A stretch of 64,000 bases of DNA from an uncultured Candidatus Saccharibacteria bacterium (GTDB taxonomy: Bacteria > Patescibacteriota > Minisyncoccia > UBA6257 > 2-01-FULL-56-20). Under the pieces are notes generated by a model. That model searched no databases and was not told the DNA's origin. It saw nothing but the letters and a program-made list of their open reading frames with translations. Positions 22,167 to 58,612 of the stretch are shown here, piece after piece. The stretch covers positions 6,183-70,182 of the forward strand of contig CAZMPQ010000001.1 in NCBI GenBank assembly GCA_964568535.1, given 5' to 3'. Both the position numbers and the translations under genes were made by a program. The stretch's first letter is position 1, and each line of letters starts with the position of its first letter.

Positions 22167-23156
22167 TCACCGCCCGCCGGTGCGGCGCTTTGCGAACACA
22201 TCAGTTGATCGATTGTCTTTGCATCGCACCATCAGCTCGCCCGGGGAGATCGGGGACATTGCGGTGGCGTGCTTTGTCAGTCGGAACGCATCCTCATTCG
22301 CATCGTAGAATGCAAACCCCATGCGCTCCAAGTCATACAGAAGCGCGGCCGGGTCCGTGCCGTAGAGGCGCATGCCGGCGGGCCACAGCTCAAAATGGAG
22401 CTTTATATCAGGATTTGCCTGCAAGAGCCCACGCATGCCGGCGATGACCGCCCCCTCCGAGCCCTGCACGTCTATCTTCACCAAGCTGACCGGACGCTTT
22501 TCGCCCTTCATGAATTCATCAAGCGACACCATCTGCACCTCAACAGACGGACGGAGGCCTGCTTGTTCAAGCACGAGCGATTTGTCTTCCTTGGTCAATG
22601 CCGTTGAGTGCGCAAGACGTTCCTGCGGATCGTAGCTTCGGTGGTCGCCCGGATTCGCTTCGGACATGTAGAGCCGCACCGTGCCGGCGCGTTCGCCAAC
22701 TGCTTTCGGAACGATGTCTACATTCGCGTAGTTGTTCATTGCAACATTTTTCCGCAGGAGAACGAGATTGTCCGGTCCCGGCTCAAAGGCGAATACCTTC
22801 CCCTCCGGGCCTACGCAGCGCGCGAAGGTCAGCGTGTGCATGCCGATGTTCGCACCGACATCCACGACCGCCGTGCCGCGGGGTATCTCGCGTTCAAAGA
22901 GGCGGCGCGTGTCGGCCTCGCGCTCGCCGCCGAACACGGCGAATGCGGCGCGGAATTGCCCGGGGACGGCGATGCGGTGCCCGTCTATCTCGTAAACCTC
23001 CGGCCACTCGTGGTGCTTCAGTGTCGCGTCTATTGTCCGGTAGAGGTAGCCGAACGGCCACACTTTCTGCAGACCTTTGCCGCGCAGATACGTCGTACCA
23101 ATGCGCCAAAAGAACGCTGCTCCCGCTATCTTTGCCTTCTCTAATATTCCCTTCAT
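22167..23156 (-). CDS. FkbM-family SAM-dependent methyltransferase
   Basis: Carries VVDVGANIGMHTLTFARCVGPEGKVFAFEPGPDNL. I chose the start at M47, which gives an ATGA overlap with the upstream gene. Confidence 0.7.
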   Translation of the reverse strand: MKGILEKAKIAGAAFFWRIGTTYLRGKGLQKVWPFGYLYRTIDATLKHHEWPEVYEIDGHRIAVPGQFRAAFAVFGGEREADTRRLFEREIPRGTAVVDVGANIGMHTLTFARCVGPEGKVFAFEPGPDNLVLLRKNVAMNNYANVDIVPKAVGERAGTVRLYMSEANPGDHRSYDPQERLAHSTALTKEDKSLVLEQAGLRPSVEVQMVSLDEFMKGEKRPVSLVKIDVQGSEGAVIAGMRGLLQANPDIKLHFELWPAGMRLYGTDPAALLYDLERMGFAFYDANEDAFRLTKHATAMSPISPGELMVRCKDNRSTDVFAKRRTGGR

Positions 23157-24202
23157 GCCGTGTGGTTCCCTGAAGATCGCAGGTGTCCGAGCATTTGCTG
23201 GGCACGATGGCGCCAGGTGTGGTGTTGCAGCACGTACTCGCGGACACGTGCCGCGCGCTTTGCACGCTCCGCGTCCATTCCCGGCGCGAGCCAATGGTCC
23301 AGAAGCGGATGTATCTCTTTTGCCGAGCTGAACGTCACGAGCGAATCCTTCGGGAAGAGGAGGTCGTGGTCCGCGCGATGGTCCACGAGCTGAAACAGCC
23401 CTGCAAGCGCGACCTCAAAGGTCCGCGCGGATACGGAGGTGAAGTGCCACGTCGAATGGATGTTGAGGAATAGTTTCGTCTTTGCATACAACTCGTTCAG
23501 CGCCGCCGTGCTCAACCGCCCGCTTTGGACAACGCGCTGTTTGAGCCCCGGGAAGTAGCGGTGCCAATACTCCAGCCCTGTGCCGCAGACGGCAACACGG
23601 TATTTTTCAGGAATGTCGGCGAGTATCTTTGCGCGCAGATAGCCGTCCCCGCTCTGCGGCGGCAAGCTGCCGGCGAAGACGATGTCGTATTCCTTTTTCG
23701 GCTCCGGCGAGAGCGGATGGAATACTTTGGGGTCGCCAGCAAGCGGGAGGTGCACCGCATCTTGCTCGCCGTAGAGGATGGTCATCCAGGACGGGAATCG
23801 GTCTATCGTGAACACCCGGTCCACGTACGCGAGCGCCGCGAGGGCGTCCTTTGCCTGCGCGCCTGCGGCGGGAGAATCCATCCAGTAGAAGATGGGTTTC
23901 TTGAGCTCTCGCGCTTCGCGGACCGCCTCGGGCAGGATGTTCGGCGCGTGTTCCAAAACAATGAGGTCCGGCTTCGCGTCGCGGACGCTCTGGAGCCAGT
24001 CGCGGCTCACTGCCCTGCGAAACACGTCTTCCGCGCCATACTGCACCTTCGGAATGCGCGTGCCGATACGCTGTATCCATCGCTGGGTCTTCGTGCCGTT
24101 ATCGTTGAAAAACGAGACGCTGTGCCCAAGCTCGCGCAGGGCATCGCCGAAGAACGCGCCGAATCCCCCATGCCAAACCGGCGTCGTATAGTGTATCTTC
24201 AT
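23153..24202 (-). CDS. CgeB-like glycosyltransferase (paralog of the 2818..3873 gene)
   Basis: Carries FEVALAGLFQLVDH...DAERAKRAARVREYVLQHHTWRHR. Confidence 0.6.
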   Translation of the reverse strand: MKIHYTTPVWHGGFGAFFGDALRELGHSVSFFNDNGTKTQRWIQRIGTRIPKVQYGAEDVFRRAVSRDWLQSVRDAKPDLIVLEHAPNILPEAVREARELKKPIFYWMDSPAAGAQAKDALAALAYVDRVFTIDRFPSWMTILYGEQDAVHLPLAGDPKVFHPLSPEPKKEYDIVFAGSLPPQSGDGYLRAKILADIPEKYRVAVCGTGLEYWHRYFPGLKQRVVQSGRLSTAALNELYAKTKLFLNIHSTWHFTSVSARTFEVALAGLFQLVDHRADHDLLFPKDSLVTFSSAKEIHPLLDHWLAPGMDAERAKRAARVREYVLQHHTWRHRAQQMLGHLRSSGNHTA

Positions 24203-24267
24203 GCACAGACAGGATAATCCAACTCTCGCCCGAATGGAACCCGTGCGCGAATTGCTGCGTGAATAGA

Positions 24268-24302
24268 CCCCGAGCGGCGTGCTACGAGCACGCCGCTCGG
24301 GG
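24268..24302. terminator. perfect 16-bp inverted repeat with a 3-nt loop (CCCCGAGCGGCGTGCT-ACG-AGCACGCCGCTCGGGG)
   Basis: Read directly from the sequence. It lies between the end of the surface-protein operon and the start of the CgeB-like gene. There is no strong T-tract, so it is either a stem-loop terminator or an RNA stability element. Confidence 0.4.
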
Positions 24303-24319
24303 CGTTTACCGTATCGCTC

Positions 24320-24397
24320 TTACTGGGACGTAGAACTCGGAGCTGGAGCCGAAGGAGTTGAGGTAACGTGGATGGGAGGTGGAAGGGGTGGTAGTCC
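24320..24397 (-). pseudogene. relic 3' end of a third small-partner gene (it encodes ...GLPPLPPPIHVTSTPSAPAPSSTSQ*)
   Basis: The minus-strand translation matches the C-terminal tail of the 26134..27117 protein (PPPPPPIHVTSTPPAPAQSSTSQ*). No corresponding N-terminal or central domain lies upstream of it. Confidence 0.55.
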
Positions 24398-24404
24398 CTC
24401 TTTA

Positions 24405-24752
24405 TTAGAATAAAGTCGGGTGAGCAAACATTTGAGAGGCACCATACATAAAAAAAGCTGTCGATACGAATACCCCCAAAGAAAAGAAGAGAAAAGAAAA
24501 GAAGAGAAAAGAAGAGCCCAATCTTCTTAGCTGTTCTCGAAATCGCTTTATGAAGAAGTTCACCAAGAAAAATGGTAAAGAAAAAACACTGATGATTTCC
24601 AAGATTAGTGAATAAATGTTTTCAAATGGAAAGAGCGCCTTTGGCAAGCTTGGGAATACATCTAACGAATAGGGAATCGTAAAAACTAACAATCCGACTA
24701 CTATGCCACCTAAAAGATTTCCGACATAAAACAAATTTAACTTTTTTTTCAT
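24405..24752 (-). CDS. hypothetical small Phe-rich membrane protein in a low-GC (~30%) patch
   Basis: A 115-aa ORF with three or four hydrophobic segments. It begins MKKKLNLFYVGNLLGGIVVGLL, similar to the partner-protein signal anchors. The local GC content is far below the window average. Confidence 0.35.
   Translation of the reverse strand: MKKKLNLFYVGNLLGGIVVGLLVFTIPYSLDVFPSLPKALFPFENIYSLILEIISVFSLPFFLVNFFIKRFREQLRRLGSSFLFFSFLFFSLGVFVSTAFFMYGASQMFAHPTLF
24481..24516. repeat. simple purine-rich repeat, roughly (GAAAAGAAGA)x3.5
   Basis: The sequence reads gaaaagaagagaaaagaaaagaagagaaaagaagag. Confidence 0.6.
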
Positions 24753-24781
24753 GAATTTTTGATATTATTAACAAGATTATA

Positions 24782-26137
24782 TCACCATTTGATTATCCCT
24801 TTAATTCTATAAGGGTCGAAGATGGGGTTTAGCTTAGAACTCCAAAGCATTTCAAAATCGCTTATATCTTGGGTACCCAAGTCAGTCTTGGGCGATACAA
24901 GACCGCAAGTGCTAGTGGAATTATCCATAATATTATTTCCTGTACTATGCGCCAGACCGAGTGCGTGCCCAAGCTCATGCGTAATAGTGCATTGTTTCAT
25001 TGAATTCGTATAAGGATCCATATAGTAAGTATTGAAAAGGATATGAGGTTGGTTTGGTGTGGTTGTAGGAACCCATAATCCTGCTTTTCCCATCCATTGA
25101 CCAACGGTCGAGCTGACGACGTCTACATATATATCCCAATCTGAACCAGATGTAGAGGTTGATTTCTTGAGATTCACATAGCTTGCAGTCGCGTCATTCC
25201 AAGTAATGATTGCGTTTAACATTTGCGCATCATATGGCGTAGAACTGCCTATTCTCATGATATATGGCGATGTGCTTGTATTGACGCCCGGCGGCGACCA
25301 CTCGGTATTGTCAGGACGTGACAAGAACGCCGTGTAATAATTGTCCGCATCAATATAGTCAGAAATCTTCGCACCTGTTCCTGAAGCGTTCTGCGTGGCA
25401 TGCCAGGGTCCGGCGTTCTCCGTAGAACTGTTGGCATCATCCAGCGGATACCACCCACCCCAGAAGTTCAATCTCATTGTGGAGGTCGGACTGCCAGTCT
25501 TCCAAGCACTGCTTGTGCTGTTGTTGTATATCGTGCTCGACGCCACCGTCACCGTCCCGCCGGTAATATACAGGCCGTAATCGTTATCGTGTATCGCTGA
25601 TTCCGTTACCGTCGTCGCGCCTCCCGTGCTGTATATCCCGTAGTCCGAAGCATAGGAGATGTCGGTATATCTCGTATTGAGCGTGCCGCCAGTAACGTAC
25701 ACGGTACTGCCTGCTGTGTTTCCGCCGTATCTCACGACGGTTCCTGCGAGAGTCGTGCTCGCGCCGGAGGTAATTTGAATATTTCCCCAATCCCCTGCGG
25801 CTCCCGTTGAAGTTCCATCTCCATTCAGATCCCCTCCCACGCTGTCGTCTTTGAAGGAGGTGAAATATACGAGGGTAGGGCTCAGTGCTCCTCCTTTCAC
25901 ATCAAGCTCTCCGTTCACGATGAGGGAGGTAGATGGTTTGAACTTGATGATGGTGCCGGGTTCAATGGTGATAGTCTTGCCTGCATTGATGGTGACGGTT
26001 GAGGAGACGATATATGGGCCTTCGGCTTTGGACCAGGTGGTGGAGGTTGCGATGGAGCCGGAGAGGGTGCTGGATGGCTTCGCCACGAGTGGTATGCATA
26101 CAAGCATACCACTTTGTTCTATGCGCTCACAGCTCAC
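24782..26137 (-). CDS. secreted parallel beta-helix plus metzincin zinc-metallopeptidase domain protein (a truncated paralog of the 1058-aa protein, lacking the LamG domains)
   Basis: It is about 85-95% identical to the C-terminal ~440 aa of the 27152..30328 gene product. It carries HELGHALGLAHS. An ATGA overlap couples it to the upstream partner gene. Confidence 0.6.
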   Translation of the reverse strand: MSCERIEQSGMLVCIPLVAKPSSTLSGSIATSTTWSKAEGPYIVSSTVTINAGKTITIEPGTIIKFKPSTSLIVNGELDVKGGALSPTLVYFTSFKDDSVGGDLNGDGTSTGAAGDWGNIQITSGASTTLAGTVVRYGGNTAGSTVYVTGGTLNTRYTDISYASDYGIYSTGGATTVTESAIHDNDYGLYITGGTVTVASSTIYNNSTSSAWKTGSPTSTMRLNFWGGWYPLDDANSSTENAGPWHATQNASGTGAKISDYIDADNYYTAFLSRPDNTEWSPPGVNTSTSPYIMRIGSSTPYDAQMLNAIITWNDATASYVNLKKSTSTSGSDWDIYVDVVSSTVGQWMGKAGLWVPTTTPNQPHILFNTYYMDPYTNSMKQCTITHELGHALGLAHSTGNNIMDNSTSTCGLVSPKTDLGTQDISDFEMLWSSKLNPIFDPYRIKGIIKW

Positions 26138-27117
26138 TGACTGGTTGATGACTGAGCAGGTGCTGGAGGCGTTGAGGTAACGTGGATAGGAGGCGGAGGG
26201 GGCGGAGTTGGTGGTTGGGGTGGAGGCGGATAAAATGGGGCGCAGTCGGGGTCTTGGGCGTCGGTGAGGTTGTCGAGGTCGTTGTCTTTGTTGTCACGAC
26301 AATTCACCTGATGGTCCTCTCGATAATATGGCCGGCAGTTGGGGTCGCCCTGATCGACAAGTCTATCTCCGTCATTATCTATGCCGTCGCGACAACTACT
26401 CCCTGAAGTTTCTGTTGTATCTTGTGGTAGTGGCGGTGGCGGCAATGTCTCTGGCACAGGACGGGGAGGTATGAGTTCAGCAAATTTATTGTGGACTGCC
26501 TGTTTCTCAGCTTGGGAGAGCGACTGGAATAAATTAGCGGCAGATTCGCCTGTTGTGCGTCCGTCAAATGGTATCTCATTCGGATACGCATTGAGTAGTT
26601 CGTATGTCCGCGCGTGTCGTAAAACGAGTTCTCTTAATTGCTCCTTACTCAAGTTGGCGTGCTCACTCACTACGGTCTTAGTCGCCGGATGAAAACCTAC
26701 AAAATACCATGGGCCAGCTTCATCGGGGAGATGAGTAGCTCCAAACAGATACGTTGTGCCGGGTGCAAGTTTATCCCCTTTTGTAGAATCCAAGCTCACA
26801 ACAATCCTATCCTCGGCAATACCTTTGATATTGTAAATAACCTCAACGTCATATTGTGTTCTTGATAAACCCAGTGAGTTATCGCTTCTTCCTGCTTCTG
26901 CAAGCACCTTGCCGGCAAATACATTTTGGTAATAACCAACCAACCTGCGGTTGTTATTGAAGTCAGTTGCCCACGTCGCGGCAATGCCGGATTCTCCCAT
27001 GTTCTTTACGCCTGAGTCAGTTGGTGTCTGAAAACCAACCTGCTGTACACCCCTCATCCCGAGATAGATTGCACCGAAAATCAAGATACTTCCAACGATA
27101 AATAGTCGTTTCTTCAT
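26134..27117 (-). CDS. secreted partner protein: signal anchor, a conserved domain of unknown function, two Cys-bracketed Asp-rich (TSP3-like calcium-binding) repeats, and a poly-proline C-terminal tail
   Basis: Starts MKKRLFIVGSILIFGAIYLG. Carries CRDGIDNDGDRLVDQGDPNC and CRDNKDNDLDNLTDAQDPDC, and ends PPPPQPPTPPPPPPIHVTSTPPAPAQSSTSQ. It is a paralog of the 38053..39054 gene. Confidence 0.6.
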   Translation of the reverse strand: MKKRLFIVGSILIFGAIYLGMRGVQQVGFQTPTDSGVKNMGESGIAATWATDFNNNRRLVGYYQNVFAGKVLAEAGRSDNSLGLSRTQYDVEVIYNIKGIAEDRIVVSLDSTKGDKLAPGTTYLFGATHLPDEAGPWYFVGFHPATKTVVSEHANLSKEQLRELVLRHARTYELLNAYPNEIPFDGRTTGESAANLFQSLSQAEKQAVHNKFAELIPPRPVPETLPPPPLPQDTTETSGSSCRDGIDNDGDRLVDQGDPNCRPYYREDHQVNCRDNKDNDLDNLTDAQDPDCAPFYPPPPQPPTPPPPPPIHVTSTPPAPAQSSTSQ

Positions 27118-27151
27118 GGTGATGGTTAATTATGTGATGACCCTATGGAAC

Positions 27152-30100
27152 TTATTGCCATTGAATGATGTTTTTCAATCGGTGCGGATCGAAAATAGGG
27201 TGCAGAGCGGGGGTCCAAAGCAATCGAAAATCGCTTATGTCTTGGGCACTTAGATTGGTCTGCGACGATCCTATCTGGCACGTCTGGTCCATTAAGTTGC
27301 CTTCCGGACTATGCGCCAATCCCAAAGCATGCCCGAGCTCGTGGGTGGTTACGCACTGCTTATTCATCTCGACGCCCATTCGCGCGGTATTGAAGTAAAT
27401 GTGAGCGATGCTAGTTGAAGACGGGATATAAAACCATGCCCAACCTCGAGGAACATAAAGCCCGGCCCAATCCAGTGTAGAACTCGTAATATCTGCCGCG
27501 GCCACATCCCACTGCGAGTTCGGGTACGAACTTGCCTTCTCTAAGTTAATATAACCTACGGTTGTATCATTCCAAGTATCAATGCCATCCTCCAATTGCG
27601 TCTGATATTGAGTAGAACTGCCCACCCGCATCACGTATGTTGATGTATTAGTGTAAACAGCTAACGGCGACCAAGTGTTAACATTAGGATGAGACAAATA
27701 CGCGGTGTAGTAATTGTCCGCGTCTATGTAATCGGATATTTTCGCTCCAGTCCCACTAGTATTCTGCGTAGCGTGCCACGGTCCAGCATTTTCCGTCGAG
27801 GTGTTCTTTTCGCTTGAGCCATCATAAGTATCGTCGAGCGGATACCATCCACCCCAGAAGTTCCATTTCATTGTGGAGGTCGGGCTGCCGGTTTTCCAAG
27901 CACTGCTTGTCGCGTTGTTATATATCGTGCTCGATGCCACCGTCACCGTCCCACCGGTAATATACAGACCGTAATCGTTGTCATGTATCGCTGATTCCGT
28001 TACCGTCGTTGCCCCTCCTGTGCTGTATATGCCGTAGTCCGAGGAGTAGGAGATATCGGTATATCGGGCGTTCAGCGTGCCTCCAGTCACGTAGATGGTA
28101 CTACTTGCAGTGCTTCCACCATAGCGGACAACGCTTCCTGCGATGGTAGTACTCGCCCCCGAGTTGATTTGGATATGCCCCCAATCCCCTGCCACCGGCG
28201 CTGTCGCTCCTCCGTCTCCATTCGTATCCCCACCCACACTGTCATCCTTGTATGACGTGAAATATACGAGCGTGGAGCTCAGTGCTCCTCCCTGCACATC
28301 AAGCTCTCCGTTCACGATGAGGGAGGTAGAGGGTTTGAACTTGATGATGGTGCCGGGTTCAATGGTGATAGTCTTGCCTGCATTGATGGTGACGGTTGAG
28401 GAGACGATATATGGGCCTTCGGCTTTGGACCAGGTGGTGCTGGTTGCGATGGTACCGGAGAGGAGGCCTCCGCAGCCGGAGGATTGGGCGCAGACGCGCC
28501 TGCCCTGACTACTGTTCCAGAGCTTCGTCACTTCGCCTGCGGTCAATGCGCGGTTCAGGACCACCACCTCGTCAATCATAGCAGAGATCTTTCCGTAACC
28601 GCCGCCTGAGGGGTAGCCGCCGTGGGCGCCGATGCCGGTGCCGGTGTCTACCGCCGAGGTGCCGTTCCCGGAGCCAGCGGCTGCCTCGGCCTTGAGGTCG
28701 TTCTGCACATAGAGGCGGAGGCTCGTGCCGTCGAAGGTGCAGGCGACGTGGTACCAGGTGGAAGTTGCGAGGCCGTTCCCGCCATTCGTCCAGGAGGCGG
28801 TCTCGTTCGCGGCGCCCCAGCGATTCCGTTGGCAATAAAGTGTCCTCGTGCTCCCGCCGGTATATTCAATGCCGTAGGCAACATCAGTGCCGCTGTCCAC
28901 GACGGAGACGATTTCCTGGTCTCCGGAGGCGATGCTGGCGAACTTGACCCAGGCCGCGAGAGACATGGCGCCCCCGGAGATACCGAGATTCTCCGACGCG
29001 TAAAGATACTTCGTCGTGTTGTCCGTCCCGAAGTCCGCGGCAGTGCCGAGCACGCCGGTTCCCGTTGCGGCGGGGCCGTAGTTCGTCAGGGTGTAGTGAT
29101 TGCCGCTCGCGTCGGCGGCGAAGTGATGGTCAGTATGGTAGAGCGCTCGGATCGCGCCGTCGGTGATCTGGAGATACGGCGATGGGTCCGTTTCCACCGT
29201 GAAATCAAATACATCCGCCGTCCCGAATTGCGTCCAGGAGGATGTGGCGAAAGTCACAGTGTCCTGCGCCCGCGCGCGCCAGTACCAGGACCCGGGCGTG
29301 ATAGAGGAAACGGTCGTTGACGCCTGTGCGCCAGGCGCGACTGGGGAGCTTGTCTGCGTCATTGGGCCGGCGAACGAGGTGCTCGTTGCGAGCTCCACCT
29401 GGACTATGAGCTGGTTCGTGGATGAGGAGTTCGGGATAGCCTTGAGCACGACGCTCGTCTCCGCCGTCGTTGCTCCTTCGGCGAGCGAGGTCGTACCGTT
29501 AGACTTGAACTGGAGGAGATCGCCGATGCTCGGCGGCGTGGACGACGTGCAGCCTACCGTAACGCAAATCGTATCCCCCGAACCGCTGTTCCAGAGCGCA
29601 TTGCGAGTAGAGGTGGAGATGCGGGTGTTCATGAAAAAGAGCTCATCGATATGGAAGTCACCGAGTGCAGCCGCGTTGCATACGGGATTCACGTTCGCCG
29701 AGCGGCCGTTCACGCAGATATCCGTCGTGAAGTTCGTCGTGTCACTGTCGCTCCCCGAGGTCACGATGGTGTTGTTCACATACCACTCTACCGAGCTTCC
29801 CGTACGGGTCAGGAGATGCCACTGCCAAGCGCCGACTGGCGGGCTGGAGGTGGTGTATTGCATCTCGCAGGGCGGCGTACCGTCCACGAACTCCAGGACG
29901 CCTGCGGCACAGGCCTGCGCACGGCTTATCTGTTCGATGCTGTCAGCTCCCGCACTACGGCGGCTGATCACGGCATCATCGTCCAGGGTCGCTTGTGCAT
30001 TAATCCAGAAACCGATGCTGAAATCACTGGAGAGGTCCATAGCGCTGGACGAGGCTCGGAACCAGCCGGTTCCCTGAGTGTCGCCGGCGTTGCCGAACCA

Positions 30101-30328
30101 ACCGGTCACGTAGGCGGTGCCGCTTGCGGTGAGGTTCCTACCGTTTCCTGAGGAATCGCTTGCATCCTCAAAGTGGTAGAGGGCGGTGACGGAGCTTGAG
30201 GGGATGTATACAGTGGCGGAGGCGGGGTGGGGGAAGAAAAACGCCGCCAAGATGGCGACGGTAGGGACGGCGAGGACAGCGGCGGACGTTATTCCACCGA
30301 ACGGAACGACCCTGGCGTTCCTGAACAT
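27152..30328 (-). CDS. very large secreted surface protein: signal peptide, two LamG_3 (concanavalin A-like) domains, an Ig/FN3-like region, a parallel beta-helix and a C-terminal metzincin (M10-like) catalytic domain
   Basis: Starts MFRNARVVP followed by a hydrophobic helix. The LamG_3 domain ends are ALYHFEDASDSSGNG...IDELFFMNTRISTSTRNALWNSG and ALYHTDHHFAADASGNH...IDEVVVLNRALTAGEVTKLWNSS. The beta-helix repeats include TGGATTVTESAIHDNDYGLYITGG. The zinc motif is THELGHALGLAHS, and the conserved C-terminus is FDPHRLKNIIQWQ. Confidence 0.75.
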   Translation of the reverse strand: MFRNARVVPFGGITSAAVLAVPTVAILAAFFFPHPASATVYIPSSSVTALYHFEDASDSSGNGRNLTASGTAYVTGWFGNAGDTQGTGWFRASSSAMDLSSDFSIGFWINAQATLDDDAVISRRSAGADSIEQISRAQACAAGVLEFVDGTPPCEMQYTTSSPPVGAWQWHLLTRTGSSVEWYVNNTIVTSGSDSDTTNFTTDICVNGRSANVNPVCNAAALGDFHIDELFFMNTRISTSTRNALWNSGSGDTICVTVGCTSSTPPSIGDLLQFKSNGTTSLAEGATTAETSVVLKAIPNSSSTNQLIVQVELATSTSFAGPMTQTSSPVAPGAQASTTVSSITPGSWYWRARAQDTVTFATSSWTQFGTADVFDFTVETDPSPYLQITDGAIRALYHTDHHFAADASGNHYTLTNYGPAATGTGVLGTAADFGTDNTTKYLYASENLGISGGAMSLAAWVKFASIASGDQEIVSVVDSGTDVAYGIEYTGGSTRTLYCQRNRWGAANETASWTNGGNGLATSTWYHVACTFDGTSLRLYVQNDLKAEAAAGSGNGTSAVDTGTGIGAHGGYPSGGGYGKISAMIDEVVVLNRALTAGEVTKLWNSSQGRRVCAQSSGCGGLLSGTIATSTTWSKAEGPYIVSSTVTINAGKTITIEPGTIIKFKPSTSLIVNGELDVQGGALSSTLVYFTSYKDDSVGGDTNGDGGATAPVAGDWGHIQINSGASTTIAGSVVRYGGSTASSTIYVTGGTLNARYTDISYSSDYGIYSTGGATTVTESAIHDNDYGLYITGGTVTVASSTIYNNATSSAWKTGSPTSTMKWNFWGGWYPLDDTYDGSSEKNTSTENAGPWHATQNTSGTGAKISDYIDADNYYTAYLSHPNVNTWSPLAVYTNTSTYVMRVGSSTQYQTQLEDGIDTWNDTTVGYINLEKASSYPNSQWDVAAADITSSTLDWAGLYVPRGWAWFYIPSSTSIAHIYFNTARMGVEMNKQCVTTHELGHALGLAHSPEGNLMDQTCQIGSSQTNLSAQDISDFRLLWTPALHPIFDPHRLKNIIQWQ

Positions 30329-30349
30329 GATTCGATTGTATCTCCAAAG

Positions 30350-30358
30350 CCCCCCCCC
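30350..30358. repeat. homopolymeric tract, C9 on the plus strand (G9 on the coding strand), 21 nt upstream of the ATG of the 1058-aa gene
   Basis: Read directly. On the coding strand the context is CTTGCCTCGGGGGGGGGCTTTGGAGATACAATCGAATCATG, i.e. TTGCCT, then 19 nt including G9, then TACAAT, then 6 nt, then ATG. Confidence 0.8.
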
Positions 30359-30380
30359 GAGGCAAGGAGGTTATGCACAG

Positions 30381-37826: not shown

Positions 37827-38052
37827 CTATTCCCCTTCTTCAGGCCCAGAGCCGCCGAAGAGCTTGCGAACGCCGGCAGTGAGCCGGAAAAAACGCGCGA
37901 GCGCCATCTGCCACAGCGAACTCCCCGCGCCGGGGTCAATGTACCCCAGGGCTTTCAATTGCTCTACAACTTCGTCACGTGAGGGATCTTGTTCGTCAGC
38001 CACGCGATGATGGTAGCAGAGGAAATGGAGGGTGTAAACGCTGACACGCCAA

Positions 38053-39054
38053 TTACTGCCCGGTTGAGGTCGGAGCCGGTGCCGGAGGCGTTGAAGTGGG
38101 CGCAGTAGGAGATGGCGCGAAGTTCTCCGGTGGGAGTGGAGCGGAAGGCGGAGGAGGTGGGGGTTGTGGCGGATAGAATTGGGCGCAGTCGGGGTCGGCG
38201 GAGTCGGTGAAACCGTCGCGATCGTTGTCGATGTTGTCTCCACAAAGGGCTGGGAGGTCTTCTCGGAGAGCCCCACCACAGTCGGGATCTGCTTTATCAA
38301 TTAGCCCATCTTTGTCGTTATCTTCTTTATCACCGCAACGACTCCAAGAATTCTCAGGTATACTATCGCGGCTTGTAGAAATGGGAGGCAAAATCTCCGG
38401 CACCGGGCGTGGAGGTATCAACTCCTGGAATTTGTCGTACACTGCTCGCTTGTTCGCTTCAAAAAGGGATTGGAAAGAGTTTATCGTCCGGCCCTTTTGA
38501 ATATCAATATCTCTCAATATCTCGTTCGGATATGCGTTGAGTAATTCATACGTCCTTGAGTGTTTTTTTACAATGTCGGTCAGTTCTTCGTTTGTAAGAC
38601 GCGAACTCTGGCTTATGGACACATGGAAGGCGTTCGGGGAACCAACGTAATACCACGGTTCTGTTTCGGCCCAGTGACGAGCGGCAAGGATATACGTGTT
38701 GCCCGGGACAAGTCGAGCGCCCTCAAATGCTTCTATATCAACTTGTATCCTACCACTCGCAGTGCCTTTGATGTTGTAAAGAACTTCTACTTCGTACTGA
38801 TAATGTGCAAGCTGACTACCTCCAGGGAGTGTTTGAGGATTGTTTCCTCTCTCTGCGAGGACTTTCGCCGCAAAGACCTCTTGGGCGTAGCCCACTAAGA
38901 CGCGCGGATTGTCGTAGTTGATTGCGTATGAAGCTGCGGGGCTAGAATTTTCTTCGTTTTGCCCATTATCAAGGGGTAATTCAGAGTTCACGGCGACATA
39001 GAAACCAACGATAACTGCTACACTGCTTACGATGATGGCTAGTTGCCTTTTCAT
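38053..39054 (-). CDS. secreted partner protein (paralog of the 26134..27117 gene): signal anchor, a conserved domain, two Cys-bracketed Asp-rich repeats and a poly-proline tail
   Basis: Starts MKRQLAIIVSSVAVIVGFYVA. Carries RTYELLNAYPNEI, CGDKEDNDKDGLIDKADPDC and CGDNIDNDRDGFTDSADPDC, and ends PPQPPPPPPSAPLPP...TPPAPAPTSTGQ. Confidence 0.6.
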   Translation of the reverse strand: MKRQLAIIVSSVAVIVGFYVAVNSELPLDNGQNEENSSPAASYAINYDNPRVLVGYAQEVFAAKVLAERGNNPQTLPGGSQLAHYQYEVEVLYNIKGTASGRIQVDIEAFEGARLVPGNTYILAARHWAETEPWYYVGSPNAFHVSISQSSRLTNEELTDIVKKHSRTYELLNAYPNEILRDIDIQKGRTINSFQSLFEANKRAVYDKFQELIPPRPVPEILPPISTSRDSIPENSWSRCGDKEDNDKDGLIDKADPDCGGALREDLPALCGDNIDNDRDGFTDSADPDCAQFYPPQPPPPPPSAPLPPENFAPSPTAPTSTPPAPAPTSTGQ

Positions 39055-39079
39055 TGCATTGTTTAATGTGTTAGGGACC

Positions 39080-42000
39080 TTACCATTGAATGACGTGCTT
39101 CATCCGGTGTGGGTCAAAGAAGTAAGACGGGCTCCAGAGAAGATTGAAATTGAATAAATCTAAAATGCCTAATGTTGTTTGGGGCTCAAGAATTCCTGGG
39201 AAGTAATCGCATGAATGACGCGCCATAATACTATCCCCGTATTCAGTGTGCGATAAACCTAACGCATGACCAATCTCATGGGTTGCAACACATTGTTGCG
39301 AGTCTGAGTAAGAATTCATTCCATTTGTGTTGAATATAATGTGAGCGGTACTCGTAACAAATGGATACCACAATCCCGCCCACGATGAGGTGTCTACTGT
39401 GATATCAGCCACGTATATATCCCAGGTATCACTCGATGACGCACTTGCATTGACGACCATCACATAGCCCGATGACGAAGCGTTCCATGTGCTCATACCA
39501 TCAATAAGTTCTGATTGGTATTGCGTAGAGCTTCCCACTCTCATTTTCAGAGTACTAGAATTCACTCCAGGCGGAGACCATGTTGACTCACTAGGACTCG
39601 CAATAAATGCACTCATGTATGGACTAATGTCAATGTAATCCGATACGTCATCACCTGCTCCTGATGGGTTTTGACCAGAATGGTAAGGTCCTGCGTTGTC
39701 GGTAGATGTAGAGATATCATCAAGCGGAAACCATCCTCCCCAGAAGTTGTTGGTCATCGTAGATGTCGGCCCCGATGCATCGTGGAGCGCACCGTAGCCT
39801 GCAGTCGCATTGCTGAAGACGGTACTTGAAGACATCGTCACATTGTTGCCGCTCGTAACTCTTACGCCGTTGTAGTTGTCGTGTATTGAGGCGTATATGA
39901 TAGTCGTTGTTCCGGCCGTAAGGTACAAACCGTGCGTTTCTGCATAGGAGACATCGCTGTTTCTGATGTTCAGCACTCCCCCGTTGTTGTAGATATTTGC
40001 ATCACTTGCCGCATCTCCTCCGCCATATCTGACAACGCTTCCCACAAGCGTACTGCTCGCACCTGTATTGAACTTGATATGTCCCCAGTCACCTACCGCC
40101 GGCTGCGTCGTACTGTTGTTTGTGTCCCCTCCTACCGCATCATCGTGATACGACGTGAAATATACCAAGGTTGAGCTCAGGGCTCCTCCCTTCACATCAA
40201 GCTCTCCGTTCACGATGAGGGAGGTATTGGGTTTGAACTTGATGACGGTGCCGGACGCTACGGTGATTTTCACGCCGGAGGCGATGGTAGCGGTACTTGT
40301 GACGATGTATGGGGAGAGGTTGTGGGTCCAGGTGGTGCTTGCGGTGATAGTGCCGGAGAGGAGGTTCGCCGTGCCGCACCCTGCCGTCGTACACACTTCC
40401 GCACCGCTTCCGCTGTTCCAGAGCGCATTCCGAGTACTCGTGGATATCCGCGACGTGGACAGGAATAGTTCGTCAATATGCCAGCTGTGCTTGTAGTCGG
40501 CGTTCAAGCCGTTCACCTGGAGATCGGTGGAGTAGTTCGTGGTTGCGCTGTCGGTGAACGAATGTTGGCGCACGTTGTCCACGTAATAATCAACGATCGA
40601 GCCGCTGCGAAGCACTGTTACCCAGTACCACGTGGATGTCGCGAGAGAATAGGAGAAGTTCCCCTTGCAAGTCCCGTTGTGCCTGAACTCAAAGTTGTTT
40701 CCCGCGCACTGGGCGCCATACATCACCGCGTCATTGCTTGTTCCGCCCGTCGTCCTGCCGACAAGGGAAGTGTCGTTCAGGGCTTCCATCGGCTTCATCC
40801 AGAACCCAATAGAGAAGTCCCCCGAAAGGTCCATAGCGGATGAGGACACTGTCCAATATCCGGAACCCTGCGTAATGCCTGCGGTTGATAGCTTGCCCTC
40901 GGTAGATCCTGTCCCCCACGACGTGAGGTGGCGCGCGTTCCCCGAGGCGTCGGACGTGTCCTCAAAATGATACAGGCCGACAACGTTTGAAACCTCTACC
41001 CGCGGATTGGGAACGGTCTCCACCACGACGTCCACCACATTGTCTGTGCCGAATTGTCGCCAAGAGGATGTGGCGTTCGTCGCGGTATCCAGCGCTCTCC
41101 CTCGCCAATACCAGAATCCATCGGGGATGGCCGAGATGGTTGTTGTGGCATACGAGCTCGGAGTCACTGCGGTGCTTGTGCCGTGAAGTGCGTTCGTGAA
41201 CGACGTGCTCGTAGAAAGCTCAACTTGAAGCATGAGGTTGTTTGACGATGAGGAGTTCAAAAAAGCTTTGAAGAATACCGTGCTCTCCGCCGTGGTCGCG
41301 CCCTCGCTCAATGGGGTCGTGCCATCAGCTTTGAACTGCGTTGTTGAGGAGATGACGGGGATAGAGGAGGTCGCACATCCTAGTGTAGCGCATATCTCCG
41401 CCCCACTACCACTTGCCCAGAGCGCATCTTTCGTGCTCGTCGTGATGCGAGCGTTCATGAAAAAGAGTTCGTCCATAAGATAGGCGTGGTTGTACGATGA
41501 GCAACCGCCACCCGAGAGACCAAGGGCGCCGATACAGAGGTCGCTGCTGATATTTCCCGTCTCGCTGTCGGTGAACGGGAATACTACGCTGTTGTTCACA
41601 TAATAATCGGTGTTCGTTCCCGTTCGGGCGATGAGGAACCAGTACCAGGTGTTCGTCGAGAGCGTGTATGCCGAAGTATGGCACGTGTTGTTGTGCTTGA
41701 ACTCAACGTGGCTCCCCGCGCATGTATTCCCATAATACACGCCTTCGCGGGAAGAACCGGATATCCGATCAATGAACGGCGTGTCGTTCAGAGATACCTG
41801 TGGGTATATCCAGAATCCGATAGTGAAGTCGCCCGACAGATCCATAACTGATGACGATGCCCGGAGGAATGCGCCGCTCGCGAAGTTTGCCGCATTGGAC
41901 AGCGTACCAGTTGTGAACGTGGTCCCGGAAGCGTTTACGAGGTCGTGTCGGTTCGCCGATGACGTAACGGAGTCTGTCAGGTTCTCCATGTGGTAGAGGG

Positions 42001-42139
42001 CGGTGATGTTGGGGACGTACACGGCGGCGGAGGCGAAGCTTGGAAACAAAAACGCCACCAGAGTGGCGGCGAGGAACGCGGTGGAGAGAGCAACAAGCGT
42101 TGTTCTTTGTGACGGAACGACCCTGGCGTTCCTGAACAT
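39080..42139 (-). CDS. very large secreted surface protein with the same LamG, LamG, Ig/FN3-like, beta-helix and metzincin architecture (paralog of the 27152..30328 gene)
   Basis: I chose the start at the conserved MFRNARVVP; the ORF extends to 42199 across the poly-G tract. Carries ALYHMENLTDSVTSSANRHDL...MDELFFMNARITTSTKDALWASG, ATHEIGHALGLSH, DSIMARH (the Met-turn) and FDPHRMKHVIQW. Confidence 0.75.
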   Translation of the reverse strand: MFRNARVVPSQRTTLVALSTAFLAATLVAFLFPSFASAAVYVPNITALYHMENLTDSVTSSANRHDLVNASGTTFTTGTLSNAANFASGAFLRASSSVMDLSGDFTIGFWIYPQVSLNDTPFIDRISGSSREGVYYGNTCAGSHVEFKHNNTCHTSAYTLSTNTWYWFLIARTGTNTDYYVNNSVVFPFTDSETGNISSDLCIGALGLSGGGCSSYNHAYLMDELFFMNARITTSTKDALWASGSGAEICATLGCATSSIPVISSTTQFKADGTTPLSEGATTAESTVFFKAFLNSSSSNNLMLQVELSTSTSFTNALHGTSTAVTPSSYATTTISAIPDGFWYWRGRALDTATNATSSWRQFGTDNVVDVVVETVPNPRVEVSNVVGLYHFEDTSDASGNARHLTSWGTGSTEGKLSTAGITQGSGYWTVSSSAMDLSGDFSIGFWMKPMEALNDTSLVGRTTGGTSNDAVMYGAQCAGNNFEFRHNGTCKGNFSYSLATSTWYWVTVLRSGSIVDYYVDNVRQHSFTDSATTNYSTDLQVNGLNADYKHSWHIDELFLSTSRISTSTRNALWNSGSGAEVCTTAGCGTANLLSGTITASTTWTHNLSPYIVTSTATIASGVKITVASGTVIKFKPNTSLIVNGELDVKGGALSSTLVYFTSYHDDAVGGDTNNSTTQPAVGDWGHIKFNTGASSTLVGSVVRYGGGDAASDANIYNNGGVLNIRNSDVSYAETHGLYLTAGTTTIIYASIHDNYNGVRVTSGNNVTMSSSTVFSNATAGYGALHDASGPTSTMTNNFWGGWFPLDDISTSTDNAGPYHSGQNPSGAGDDVSDYIDISPYMSAFIASPSESTWSPPGVNSSTLKMRVGSSTQYQSELIDGMSTWNASSSGYVMVVNASASSSDTWDIYVADITVDTSSWAGLWYPFVTSTAHIIFNTNGMNSYSDSQQCVATHEIGHALGLSHTEYGDSIMARHSCDYFPGILEPQTTLGILDLFNFNLLWSPSYFFDPHRMKHVIQW

Positions 42140-42165
42140 GATGATTGAACGATACCACGGAGGAA

Positions 42166-42177
42166 CCCCCCCCCCCC
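42166..42177. repeat. homopolymeric tract, C12 on the plus strand (G12 on the coding strand), 26 nt upstream of the conserved start of the 1039-aa gene
   Basis: Read directly. On the coding strand the context is GTGCGGGGGGGGGGGGTTCCTCCGTGGTATCGTTCAATCATCATG. With 12 G the tract is in frame with an upstream ATG at 42199. Confidence 0.8.
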
Positions 42178-42199
42178 GCACAAGCGGGGATGTGCACAA

Positions 42200-43138
42200 C
42201 TATCCGCTGCTTTTCAAATACCACTCAATCGTCTTCTTCAGCCCTTCCTCAAAATCTGTCTTCGCCTTGAATCCGAATTCTTTTTCCGCGCGCGTGGTGT
42301 CCAACATTCGGCGCGGCTGGCCGTCGGGCTTTTCTGCATTCCACTTAATATCGCCTGCGTAGTCCGTAAGCCGCGCGATAAGTTCCGCAAGATTCTTGAT
42401 AGAAATTTCCATCCCTGAGCCGAGGTTCACGGGATCCGACGTATCATATTTCTCTAATGCACTTACGATGCCTTCCGCGGCGTCTTCAACATATAAGAAC
42501 TCGCGCGTCGGCCGGCCGGTACCCCATGCTTCCACGGATTTCGCGCCACTTTGCTTTGCTTCCGCAAATTTCCTGATGAGCGCAGGGACGACGTGTGAGG
42601 ATTTCGGATCGAAGTTATCTCCCGGGCCGTACAGATTCACCGGCAGGAGAAAAACAACATTCATTCCGTACTGTGTGCGATATGCGCGGGCTGCGGTGAG
42701 GAACGATTTTTTTGCGAGCCCGTAAGGCGCGTTCGTTTCTTCTGGATATCCGTTCCAGAGGTCTTCTTCATTGAACGGCACGCGTGTGTACTTCGGATAG
42801 GCGCAGATGGTGCCGAGCAGAATTATCTTTTGCACATTCGCCTTCCGCGCGGCTTCCAAAAGCCGCGCGCCCATGATCGCGTTGTCGTAAAAAAGCTCGC
42901 CGGGTTTTTCCTGGTTGTACCCGATGCCGCCCACTTTCGCGGCCAAATGGATAACCAAGTCCATCCCTTGGACGGCACGCTCGCAATCCTCGGCTTTCCG
43001 TAGGTCGTAGTCCCCCATCTGCGGGACGCGAATATCCTCGTCGCGTACGCCGCGCGCGCGGAGAACGTTCAAAATATGCGCGCCTAAAAATCCGGCGCCG
43101 CCGGTCACGAGAATTTTTTTGTTCTTCAAATCAAGCAT
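42200..43138 (-). CDS. fcl: GDP-L-fucose synthase-like (GDP-4-keto-6-deoxy-D-mannose 3,5-epimerase/4-reductase)
   Basis: Carries MLDLKNKKILVTGGAGFLGAHI, YGLAKK and NLYGPGDNFDPKSSHVVPALIRKF. I chose the start at M29. Confidence 0.75.
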   Translation of the reverse strand: MLDLKNKKILVTGGAGFLGAHILNVLRARGVRDEDIRVPQMGDYDLRKAEDCERAVQGMDLVIHLAAKVGGIGYNQEKPGELFYDNAIMGARLLEAARKANVQKIILLGTICAYPKYTRVPFNEEDLWNGYPEETNAPYGLAKKSFLTAARAYRTQYGMNVVFLLPVNLYGPGDNFDPKSSHVVPALIRKFAEAKQSGAKSVEAWGTGRPTREFLYVEDAAEGIVSALEKYDTSDPVNLGSGMEISIKNLAELIARLTDYAGDIKWNAEKPDGQPRRMLDTTRAEKEFGFKAKTDFEEGLKKTIEWYLKSSG

Positions 43139-57622: not shown

Positions 57623-58612
57623 ATGCCCGAACCAATTCTTGTATCAGGAATCCAGCCCTCCGGCCGTCTCCATATCGGGAACTACTTGGGCGCGCTCAAA
57701 AACTTCGTTGACCTGCAGAACTCGCGGAAATATTCCTGCTACTTCTTCCTCGCGGACCTGCACTCGCTCACCGAGTATCCCGCAGGCGCTACGGAGCAGA
57801 AAAAGCGTATTCTAGAACTCACCGCTGATTTTCTCGCGGCTGGTTTGGACCCGAAGAAATCACTCATCTACCAACACTCGCAGATCCCCGCGCATAGCGA
57901 AATGGCGTGGATTTTGAACACCATCACGCCGATGGGCGAACTGGAACGAATGACGCAGTACAAGGACAAGTCCGTGCGCCAACATGAGGTGAACGCTGGC
58001 CTCCTCACCTATCCGACGCTTATGGCCGCGGACATTTTGCTCTACGATGCGAAGTATGTCCCTGTCGGGAACGACCAGGACCAGCACCTTGAGCTCACAC
58101 GCACGCTCGCGCGAAAGTTCAATAAAAAATTTGGGAAGACGTTCGTTGAACCGGAAGGACTCCACACCGCGACTCCGCGTGTGATGTCTTTGAAAGACCC
58201 GTCAAAGAAGATGTCTAAATCTCAGCCGGAGACGTGCCTTTTTCTGGATGAATCCCCCGTTGAGCTAGAGAAGAAGATAAAAAGTGCAACGACCGACTCC
58301 GGAAGCGATGTGCGGTACGATGCGAAGGAAAAGCCGGGCATCTCGAACTTACTTGATATCTACTGCGGCGTAACCGGAAAAACTGTTCCGCAGGCGGTCA
58401 AAGAATTCCGCGGCAAGCAATACGGCGCCTTCAAGCAAAAAGTTGCGGAGGCGGTTGTGAAACATCTCGCGCCGTTCCGCACGAAAAAGGCAGCGCTCAT
58501 GAAAAAACCGACGGTGCTCGCGAAAGTGCTCGCAACCGGCTCGGCAAAAGCGGCGAAAGTCGCAGACGCGAAGATCGCAGGAGTGAAGGAGAAGGTCGGG
58601 CTTGCGCTCTAG
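57623..58612 (+). CDS. trpS: tryptophanyl-tRNA synthetase
   Basis: Carries the HIGH-class motif GRLHIGNYLG, plus KMSKS and GNDQDQHLELTR. Confidence 0.85.
   Translation: MPEPILVSGIQPSGRLHIGNYLGALKNFVDLQNSRKYSCYFFLADLHSLTEYPAGATEQKKRILELTADFLAAGLDPKKSLIYQHSQIPAHSEMAWILNTITPMGELERMTQYKDKSVRQHEVNAGLLTYPTLMAADILLYDAKYVPVGNDQDQHLELTRTLARKFNKKFGKTFVEPEGLHTATPRVMSLKDPSKKMSKSQPETCLFLDESPVELEKKIKSATTDSGSDVRYDAKEKPGISNLLDIYCGVTGKTVPQAVKEFRGKQYGAFKQKVAEAVVKHLAPFRTKKAALMKKPTVLAKVLATGSAKAAKVADAKIAGVKEKVGLAL

What the first reader, a model, noticed from the sequence alone, without database searches (positions are those of the whole stretch)
42140..42199. A poly-G12 tract upstream of the paralogous 1039-aa surface-protein gene, in frame with an upstream ATG
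The coding strand reads ATG TGC ACA TCC CCG CTT GTG CGG GGG GGG GGG GTT CCT CCG TGG TAT CGT TCA ATC ATC ATG TTC AGG... The G12 run therefore lies 26 nt upstream of the conserved MFRNARVVP start. It also sits inside a possible 20-codon N-terminal extension that is in frame only when the tract length is a multiple of 3. Tract length therefore could switch either translation from the upstream ATG or promoter strength. Both paralogous surface-protein genes carry a long G homopolymer at the same relative position, which argues strongly for selected, independently switchable (phase-variable) expression.
Basis: partly seen in the sequence, partly recalled or inferred. Interest (0 to 1): 0.85.

Follow-up and report, generated by a model that had tools for sequence, protein, structure and literature searches.

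The report
Poly-G tract in surface-protein promoter
A run of 12 G's, and a run of 9 G's before a sister gene, lies inside the predicted promoter of a secreted protease-like gene in an uncultured Saccharibacteria bacterium; this is the classic layout of a slippage-driven expression switch, but nothing available here shows that the run changes length.

Summary
The G12 tract is real (C12 on the + strand, 42166-42177) and ends 26 nt before the ATG at 42139. The paralogue has G9 at 30350-30358, 21 nt before its ATG. These are the only G/C runs longer than 6 in 64 kb; 0.003-0.04 runs of 9 or more are expected.

The in-frame upstream start is TTG, not ATG, and it abuts the stop codon of the upstream epimerase gene. 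The paralogue and a G8-bearing homologue in another genome have no in-frame extension, so the translational model is not supported.

The promoter model fits better. Six homologous genes in three Saccharibacteria genomes carry TAnnnT, five of them as TGnTAnnnT, 6-9 nt before the ATG. That implies leaderless or near-leaderless mRNAs. In the window, a TTGnnn hexamer lies next to each tract, giving spacers of 23 and 19 nt. Other promoters in the window mostly use 17 nt.

No reads or conspecific assemblies were available, so length variation is untested. Closer relatives lack both gene modules entirely.

Verdict: a probable promoter-type contingency locus. It is a new member of a known kind (T. pallidum tp0126, N. 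meningitidis porA) in a phylum with no report found in the library searched. Confidence is about 0.5.

The parts
42166..42177 (-). G12 homopolymer (C12 on the + strand). Proposed slippage-prone upstream part of the promoter spacer of the 1019-aa gene.
42178..42183 (-). TTGTGC, a -35-like hexamer immediately 5' of the tract. It lies 23 nt from the -10 hexamer at the assembled tract length. The same hexamer is used with a 17-nt spacer before gene 6990-7901.
42149..42157 (-). TGgTATCGT, an extended -10-like element, 9 nt before the ATG. This implies a leaderless or 2-3 nt leader mRNA.
   Evidence: same layout in L001, L003 and L014
42184..42198 (-). TGTGCACATCCCCGC: the palindrome TGTGCACA (42191-42198) plus a C-rich arm that can pair with the first G's (CCCCGC/GCGGGG). 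13 of 13 nt (TGCACATCCCCGC) are identical to the sequence upstream of the G8 tract in L001. Function unknown.
42197..42199 (-). TTG, the first possible in-frame start of the 1039-codon ORF. It abuts the TAG (42200-42202) of the epimerase gene.
39080..42139 (-). Gene for a 1019-aa secreted or surface protein: signal-peptide-like N-terminus, two Laminin_G_3 domains, a central region and a C-terminal HExxHxxGxxH metzincin-like domain.
38053..39054 (-). 333-aa partner gene (acidic double-disulfide repeats). It is paralogous to 26134-27117 and belongs to the same inserted module.
30350..30358 (-). G9 homopolymer upstream of the paralogue.
30360..30365 (-). TTGCCT, a -35-like hexamer. It lies 19 nt (c + G9 + 9 nt) from the -10 hexamer.
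30335..30340 (-). TACAAT, a -10 hexamer 6 nt before the ATG at 30328.
27152..30328 (-). Paralogous 1058-aa LamG/metzincin gene, 45% aa identity to the 1019-aa gene.
30373..30380 (-). CTGTGCAT, left copy of an exact 8-bp direct repeat flanking the 6.2-kb module that relatives lack. It includes the TGTGCATA motif.
24201..24208 (-). CTGTGCAT, right copy of the direct repeat. It overlaps the ATG of the glycosyltransferase gene 23153-24202.

Best explanation
The G12 run is the upstream part of the spacer of a sigma-70-type promoter. This promoter is packed into the 60 nt between the epimerase stop codon and the ATG of a secreted LamG/metzincin protein gene.

Layout on the coding strand: TAG, TTGTGCACATCCCCGC, TTGTGC (-35-like), G12, 11 nt, TGgTATCGT (extended -10), 9 nt, ATG. 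The mRNA would be leaderless or nearly so.

The paralogue has the same design: TTGCCT, c, G9, 9 nt, TACAAT, 6 nt, ATG.

Slipped-strand mispairing in the G run during replication would lengthen or shorten the spacer. At the assembled lengths the spacers are 23 and 19 nt; most other promoters in the window use 17 nt. Transcription of each gene would then be raised or lowered heritably, reversibly and independently of the other gene.

Shown:
- the tracts and their non-random placement;
- the -10 element at a fixed distance from the ATG in six homologous genes of three genomes;
- the TTG hexamers next to the tracts;
- the 17-nt norm in the window;
- tract lengths of 12, 9, 8 and 0 across family members.

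Inferred:
- the transcription start;
- that the tracts actually slip;
- that tract length changes expression.
For: Tract and statistics:
- These are the only G/C runs longer than 6 in 64 kb. Both sit 22 nt after the upstream stop codon and 21-26 nt before the paralogues' ATGs.
- Expected runs of 9 or more: 0.003-0.04.
- In about 84 kb of related loci, the only G/C runs of 7 or more are a G8 before another family member (L001 18123-18130) and one run in L017.

Promoter:
- TAnnnT lies 6-9 nt before the ATG in all six family genes: TACAAT-6, TGgTATCGT-9, TGaTACGCT-6, TGgTATAGT-8, TGtTATACT-6, TGcTATACT-6.
- In the window, TAnnnT is 5-fold enriched 5-12 nt before start codons (14 observed, 2.6 expected). 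By my reading of the upstream sequences printed (not counted), Shine-Dalgarno motifs are mostly absent.
- Six of 11 other such promoters have TTGnnn at 17-18 nt, five of them at exactly 17. One of these uses the same hexamer, TTGTGC.
- In the two tract-bearing promoters the TTG hexamers lie at 19 and 23 nt. The excess length is supplied by the G run.

Gene product and context:
- The N-terminus looks like a signal peptide. The protein has LamG domains and a metzincin motif.
- The genes lie in a roughly 45-kb surface-glycan cluster.
- Both genes belong to accessory modules that closer relatives lack.

Precedent:
- Poly-G between -35 and -10 with a 17-nt optimum is documented for T. pallidum tp0126 and N. 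meningitidis porA.
- Paralogous tpr genes each carry their own poly-G (PMC7864442).
Against: - No length variation was observed. No reads and no conspecific assembly were reachable.
- Both spacers are longer than optimal. This gene would need to lose 5-6 G's to reach 17-18 nt, so single-step on/off switching is not obvious.
- This promoter and the L001 one have an extended -10 (TGn). By general knowledge, that lessens dependence on -35 spacing.
- The L001 G8 promoter has no TTG hexamer next to its tract.
- The strict conservation of TGCACATCCCCGC upstream of the tract is not explained by a spacer role.
- All genes of the cluster point the same way, so read-through transcription could express the gene regardless.
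- The simple promoter scan (16-18 nt spacers only) found no promoter here.
Confidence: 0.5

Rival explanations
1. The G run is part of a fixed cis-element, not a switch. The conserved block TGCACATCCCCGC-N6-G(n) would be a regulator-binding site, or a GC hairpin (CCCCGC/GCGGGG) that insulates the module's own promoter from transcription coming out of the upstream glycan genes. The different run lengths would then be neutral drift.
For: - 13 of 13 nt are identical between this locus and L001, although the N-terminal domains downstream are only about 28-36% identical.
- The palindromic consensus TRTGCAYA lies at the same place in all three tract-bearing loci.
- A stable local hairpin is predicted for this locus (centroid -10.8 kcal/mol).
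- The element sits exactly at the 5' edge of the inserted module.
Against: - Folding energies of the three intergenic regions are no better than shuffles (z = -1.1, +0.3, -0.55).
- No T-run follows the hairpin, and the terminator scan did not report it.
- Only 6 G's are needed for the stem, yet 12 are present.
- The G9 paralogue has a different C-rich arm.
- No Rfam family matches.
- By established knowledge, a G:C run of 9-12 is intrinsically slippage-prone whatever else it does.
Confidence: 0.25
2. The motif TGTGCAYA with the adjoining C-rich/G-rich inverted repeat marks the end of a mobile or recombining gene cassette. The G run would be part of the recombination site, or a by-product of it, rather than an expression switch.
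For: - Both LamG modules are precise indels relative to L015, L016, L018 and L019.
- The 6.2-kb module is flanked by an exact 8-bp direct repeat CTGTGCAT. TGTGCAY occurs only four times on that strand in 64 kb.
- The tract-bearing 5' end is shared between non-orthologous family members in two genomes.
- Another relative has a different insertion at the same methyltransferase/glycosyltransferase junction (L017).
Against: - No recombinase or transposase was found in or next to the modules among the genes scanned.
- The repeat flanking the second module is only imperfect.
- An 8-bp repeat could equally be microhomology used for deletion in the relatives.
- The pattern scan of the metagenome collection gave only chance-level, unrelated hits.
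- This rival does not exclude the promoter role.
Confidence: 0.12
3. Translational phase variation. Ribosomes start at the upstream in-frame codon, possibly by re-initiation at TAG-TTG. They reach the protein only when the tract length is a multiple of 3.
For: The ORF is open and in frame from TTG 42199 through G12 to the ATG. The stop-start juxtaposition TAGTTG could allow coupling.
Against: - The start is TTG, not ATG, and has no Shine-Dalgarno motif.
- The conserved ATG has its own -10 element 9 nt upstream.
- The G9 paralogue has an in-frame TAA and no upstream start.
- In the G8 locus in L001 the upstream ATG is out of frame and is stopped by TAG.
- Being in frame is a 1-in-3 chance event.
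- The annotated product starts at the ATG.
- A frameshift upstream would not prevent initiation at the ATG.
Confidence: 0.04
4. The run is an assembly or sequencing artefact, for example poly-G from two-colour chemistry or a chimeric join.
For: Homopolymer lengths of 9-12 are hard to call exactly, so the stated lengths could be off by one or two.
Against: - The run is internal to an 86.9-kb contig.
- It is flanked by homologous sequence in two paralogous loci.
- It recurs with the same upstream motif in an independent MAG from another study.
Confidence: 0.02

Closest known systems
Poly-G between -35 and -10: Treponema pallidum tp0126 (OmpW homologue) and Neisseria meningitidis porA (as summarised in PMC7864442)
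   Same: A G homopolymer lies in the promoter spacer of a surface-protein gene. Expression is best when the spacer is 17 nt. Tract length changes by slipped-strand mispairing.
   Different: - Here the -35, -10 and start site are predictions only, and length variation is unobserved.
- The assembled spacers are 19 and 23 nt, on the long side of the optimum.
- The mRNA appears leaderless.
- The organism is a CPR/Saccharibacteria episymbiont candidate, not a pathogen of animals.
- A conserved 13-nt block precedes the tract.
T. pallidum tprE/G/J and tprL poly-G, and N. meningitidis opc poly-C that covers the -35 region (PMC7864442)
   Same: Members of a paralogous surface-protein family each carry their own homopolymer just upstream of the start site. 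The tract overlaps the -35 region rather than sitting cleanly in the spacer. A regulator (a CRP homologue in T. pallidum) acts together with tract length, which is a possible parallel to the TGTGCACA palindrome here.
   Different: The gene family is unrelated (LamG/metzincin rather than Tpr porins or Opc). No regulator is known here. There is no experimental support here.
Intragenic poly-G contingency genes of Campylobacter jejuni surface-glycan loci (own knowledge; touched on in PMC5530802)
   Same: G runs of 8 or more are confined to surface-structure loci of a small genome and are otherwise avoided in that genome.
   Different: Those tracts lie inside coding sequences and act by frameshift. 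Here the tract is upstream of the conserved start codon in all three cases.

Membership tests
Promoter-type simple-sequence contingency locus (phase or rheostat variation by slipped-strand mispairing) | A homopolymer or short repeat much longer than the genome's background | tested here: met
   G12 and G9 are the only G/C runs longer than 6 in 64 kb. Expected runs of 9 or more: 0.003-0.04.
Promoter-type simple-sequence contingency locus (phase or rheostat variation by slipped-strand mispairing) | The repeat lies within the core promoter (between or overlapping -35 and -10) of the regulated gene | tested here: inconclusive
   Predicted only. A conserved TAnnnT/TGnTAnnnT lies 6-9 nt before the ATG in six family genes. 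TTGnnn hexamers abut the tracts, at 19 and 23 nt, against the 17-nt norm. There is no TSS data, and the standard scan found no promoter.
Promoter-type simple-sequence contingency locus (phase or rheostat variation by slipped-strand mispairing) | Tract length varies within a population or between close strains | not testable with these tools
   No reads are available. The window's proteins are absent from the contig index. The closest relatives lack the genes. Only between family members and genomes do lengths differ: 12, 9, 8 and 0.
Promoter-type simple-sequence contingency locus (phase or rheostat variation by slipped-strand mispairing) | Expression changes with tract length | not testable with these tools
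   Needs reporters or transcriptomes.
Promoter-type simple-sequence contingency locus (phase or rheostat variation by slipped-strand mispairing) | The regulated gene encodes a surface-exposed or secreted product | tested here: met
   The N-terminus has basic residues, a hydrophobic stretch and ASA|AV (read directly). Laminin_G_3 x2 and Peptidase_M10 HExxHxxGxxH are present. The gene lies in a surface-glycan cluster.
Translational (intragenic) phase variation | The repeat lies inside the translated ORF, so that length changes shift the frame of the product | tested here: not met
   An in-frame extension from TTG exists only in this gene. It is absent in the G9 paralogue and the G8 homologue. 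The annotated start is the ATG downstream of the tract.
Intrinsic (rho-independent) terminator | A GC-rich hairpin followed by a T-run | tested here: not met
   The hairpin CCCCGC-TTGT-GCGGGG is followed by GGGGGGTTCCTCC. The scan does not report it. The fold is not better than shuffles.
Known structured RNA (Rfam) | A match to a covariance model | tested here: not met
   No match at E <= 1 in 41950-42300. Only one tRNA was found in the whole window.
Site-specific gene cassette (integron-like or other) | Presence/absence polymorphism with short repeats at the junctions | tested here: met
   Both modules are absent from L015, L016, L018 and L019. An exact 8-bp repeat CTGTGCAT flanks the 6.2-kb module. 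The repeat around the other module is only imperfect.
Site-specific gene cassette (integron-like or other) | An associated recombinase and a recognisable recombination site shared by many cassettes | tested here: inconclusive
   No recombinase was found among the neighbouring genes scanned, but not all window genes were scanned. The pattern scan of metagenomes found only unrelated chance hits.

The most novel reading that the evidence does not exclude
The block TGTGCAYA, C-rich arm, G(n), extended -10, leaderless ATG would be a portable 5' end. It would be exchanged between paralogous surface-protein genes of Saccharibacteria. The LamG/metzincin modules it heads would be gene cassettes inserted and excised at short TGTGCAY core sites inside the surface-glycan locus. 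An episymbiont of the candidate phyla radiation would then combine cassette gain and loss with slippage-driven promoter switching to vary the proteins it shows to its host.
Probability: 0.12. Interest if true: 0.8.

Novelty: new member of a known kind. Interest (0 to 1): 0.5.

Why it matters
Saccharibacteria live attached to other bacteria. How they vary the surface molecules used for that contact is largely unknown. Full-text searches of the held library found no report of repeat-mediated phase variation in Saccharibacteria or Patescibacteria.

If these tracts do switch, two things would follow. Contingency loci would extend to the candidate phyla radiation. Two accessory LamG/metalloprotease modules inside a surface-glycan cluster would become candidates for host-interaction factors.

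The locus also gives a simple, testable handle: two tracts whose lengths can be read in metagenomic data. In addition, it provides evidence that genes in this lineage are commonly transcribed as leaderless mRNAs from TTGnnn-17-TAnnnT promoters.

Tried and rejected
- Exact-protein look-ups, meant to find other assemblies of the same strain and compare tract lengths. I tried the 1019-aa, 1058-aa and 333-aa proteins and the 312-aa epimerase. None is on record.
- A scan of the metagenome collection with TRTGCAYAWCCYC-N8-G7. It gave 7 hits, about the number expected by chance. None encodes anything similar to a window gene. The same core pattern in viral contigs gave 0 hits.
- Protein-based searches for more family members. 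They found only the paralogue, one orthologue (P0002), one partial relative (P0004) and distant LamG proteins.
- The RNA-structure idea. The three intergenic regions fold no better than shuffles, and there is no Rfam match.
- The terminator idea. There is no T-run, and the scan reports nothing at the tract.
- TRTGCAYA as a window-wide motif. It has 4 matches against 2.2 expected, which is not significant on its own. Only its placement is notable.
- A Markov-chain simulation of run lengths timed out. I replaced it with an analytic estimate.
- Literature search for phase variation, homopolymers or leaderless mRNAs in Saccharibacteria/Patescibacteria. Nothing relevant was found.

Full report
**What is in the sequence**

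On the coding (minus) strand the region reads...GGA TAG | TTGTGCACATCCCCGCTTGTGC | G12 | TTCCTCCGTGGTATCGTTCAATCATC | ATG TTC AGG....
- The G12 run is C12 on the + strand at 42166-42177.
- 26 nt separate it from the ATG at 42139.
- 22 nt separate it from the TAG (42200-42202) that ends an NAD-dependent epimerase gene.
- The ORF is indeed open and in frame from 42199. However, that codon is TTG, not ATG. 'ATGTGCACA' is what the + strand shows across the palindrome TGTGCACA.
- The public record's product is the 1019-aa protein from the ATG (P0001).

The paralogue (27152-30328, 1058 aa, 45% identical) has the same design: TAG | CTGTGCATAACCTCCTTGCCTC | G9 | CTTTGGAGATACAATCGAATC | ATG.
- Again 22 nt lie between the stop codon and the run, and 21 nt between the run and the ATG.
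- It has no in-frame upstream start.

**Is it more than chance?**

- The two runs are the only G or C homopolymers longer than 6 in the window.
- With the window's own run-extension frequencies, 0.003-0.04 runs of 9 or more are expected, and 2e-6 to 3e-4 runs of 12 or more.
- Both lie at equivalent positions before paralogous genes.
- In about 84 kb of related loci, only two G/C runs of 7 or more occur. One of them (G8) lies before another member of this gene family.

**Organism and gene**

- The nearest public relatives are MAGs labelled uncultured Candidatus Saccharibacteria.
- The two proteins have a signal-peptide-like N-terminus, two Laminin_G_3 domains and a C-terminal HExxHxxGxxH metzincin-like domain.
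- Each gene is followed by a paralogous gene of about 330 aa.
- They sit in a long, co-directional surface-glycan cluster: Wzy_C, epimerases, glycosyltransferases, sulfatases and C-methyltransferases. The cluster is bounded by housekeeping genes.

**Promoter anatomy**

Family genes could be read in three genomes. In all six, a TAnnnT hexamer lies 6-9 nt before the ATG, and five of the six have the extended form TGnTAnnnT:

| Gene | Element and distance to ATG |
|---|---|
| Paralogue (G9) | TACAAT-6 |
| This gene (G12) | TGgTATCGT-9 |
| L001, G8 gene | TGaTACGCT-6 |
| L001, orthologue | TGgTATAGT-8 |
| L003 | TGtTATACT-6 |
| L014 | TGcTATACT-6 |

- Across 49 putative genes of the window, TAnnnT is five-fold enriched 5-12 nt before start codons (14 observed, 2.6 expected). 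By my reading of the upstream sequences printed, Shine-Dalgarno motifs are mostly lacking.
- Of 11 other such promoters, six have TTGnnn 17-18 nt upstream, five of them at exactly 17. One uses TTGTGC.
- I infer that this organism commonly makes leaderless or near-leaderless mRNAs from TTGnnn-17-TAnnnT promoters.
- In the two tract-bearing promoters a TTG hexamer sits directly 5' of the run (TTGTGC here, TTGCCT+c in the paralogue). The spacers are 23 and 19 nt. The surplus over 17 nt is made of G's.
- The run therefore occupies about -35 to -24 (this gene) and -30 to -22 (paralogue) relative to the inferred start.

**Related loci**

- L001 (GCA_964632585.1) has the orthologue of this gene (P0002, 54% identity) after the orthologous epimerase (66% identity). 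It has no G run there: the extended -10 follows the stop codon directly.
- The other family member in L001 carries TATGCACATCCCCGCCTAGCC-G8. TGCACATCCCCGC matches this locus at 13 of 13 nt, although the N-terminal protein parts are only about 28-36% identical.
- The tract-bearing 5' end is thus shared between non-orthologous family members. Consistent with this, the first 28 nt of the two window genes are identical against 56% identity overall.
- Closer relatives are L015, L016, L018 and L019. Their flanking genes are 74-83% identical at the nucleotide level; the methyltransferase is 91% and the epimerase 79% identical in protein.
- These relatives lack both modules precisely. The methyltransferase stop is followed by the glycosyltransferase start. 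The epimerase stop is followed by the small ORF and the sulfatase.
- The 6.2-kb module is flanked by an exact 8-bp direct repeat, CTGTGCAT.

**Most likely mechanism**

Placement in the core promoter, a surface-protein target, independent tracts on paralogues, and differing lengths among family members (12, 9, 8, 0) match the documented promoter-type contingency loci (PMC7864442):
- T. pallidum tp0126 and N. meningitidis porA: poly-G between -35 and -10, with a 17-nt optimum.
- T. pallidum tprE/G/J/L and N. meningitidis opc: a tract at or over the -35 region, acting with a regulator.

I therefore favour slippage-driven modulation of transcription.

The weak points are these:
- No length variation could be observed.
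- Both spacers are over-long.
- The extended -10 may lessen dependence on the -35.
- The L001 G8 promoter has no TTG hexamer.
- The conserved 13-nt block is unexplained.
- Read-through from upstream genes is possible.

**Rivals**

- A fixed regulatory or insulating element. Its support is the conservation of the block and a local hairpin. However, the folds are not better than shuffles, there is no T-run, and there is no Rfam match.
- A cassette-end recombination site. Its support is the indels and the 8-bp repeat. However, no recombinase was seen, and there are no further instances.
It fails in two of the three tract-bearing loci.
- An artefact. This is excluded by recurrence in an independent MAG.

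**Novelty**

The mechanism is a known kind. Full-text searches of the held library found no report of it in Saccharibacteria or Patescibacteria. I file this as a new member of a known kind, pending read-level evidence.

Noticed in passing
window 42053-42071 and 30242-30260 (minus strand): A terminator-like hairpin followed by TTTTTGTTT/TTTTTCTT lies inside both coding sequences, about 70-95 nt after the ATG, in the signal-peptide region (CGCCGCCA-CTC-TGGTGGCG and CGTCGCCA-TCT-TGGCGGCG). The two differences keep pairing through G-U. It could be an attenuator of a leaderless transcript, or an accident of Ala/Leu/Val/Phe codons.
   Followed up: no
window 42112-42139 and 30301-30328 (minus strand): The first 28 nt of the two paralogous coding sequences are identical (ATGTTCAGGAACGCCAGGGTCGTTCCGT), although the genes are 56% identical overall. 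Only one longer exact match (34 nt) exists along the genes. This suggests gene conversion or selection on the 5' end of the mRNA.
   Followed up: partly
window 24201-30380 and about 38047-42199: Both LamG/metzincin modules are precise indels relative to four closer relatives (L015, L016, L018, L019). The 6.2-kb module is flanked by an exact 8-bp direct repeat CTGTGCAT. The 4.2-kb module has TTGTGCACA at its left end and GTGTCAGCG on its right flank.
   Followed up: partly
window 24268-26137: The end of the 6.2-kb module is a patchwork:
- a 451-aa ORF (24782-26137) that is a truncated copy of the C-terminal half of the 1058-aa gene (70% aa identity, up to 92% nt identity in stretches);
- a 36% GC segment with a 115-aa membrane-like ORF (24405-24752) containing (AAAGA)7;
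- a remnant of the 3' end of a 327-aa-type gene (24319-24391);
- a perfect 16-bp hairpin (24268-24302).
   Followed up: partly
whole window (49 putative genes): By my reading of the upstream sequences printed (not counted), Shine-Dalgarno motifs are mostly absent. TAnnnT hexamers are five-fold enriched 5-12 nt before start codons, often with TTGnnn exactly 17 nt further upstream. This suggests widespread leaderless or very short-leader mRNAs in this Saccharibacteria lineage.
   Followed up: partly
L017 7295-7657 and L017 1378-1385: In a relative whose methyltransferase is 66% identical, the same methyltransferase/glycosyltransferase junction holds a 120-aa bAvd-like gene (PF22296, the accessory protein of diversity-generating retroelements). 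Elsewhere on that contig a G8 run lies 3-4 nt before the start of a Methyltransf_21 gene.
   Followed up: no
window 58609-62112 (minus strand): The class I tRNA synthetase gene (1167 aa) has a histidine-phosphatase (His_Phos_1) domain inserted between halves of the catalytic domain (residues about 509-668).
   Followed up: no
window 37827-38003 (minus strand) and L018 2862-3041: A small conserved ORF (58-59 aa, ...EVVEQLKALGYIDPGAGSSLWQ...) ends 1 nt before the sulfatase start codon. It is retained in relatives with and without the LamG module.
   Followed up: no
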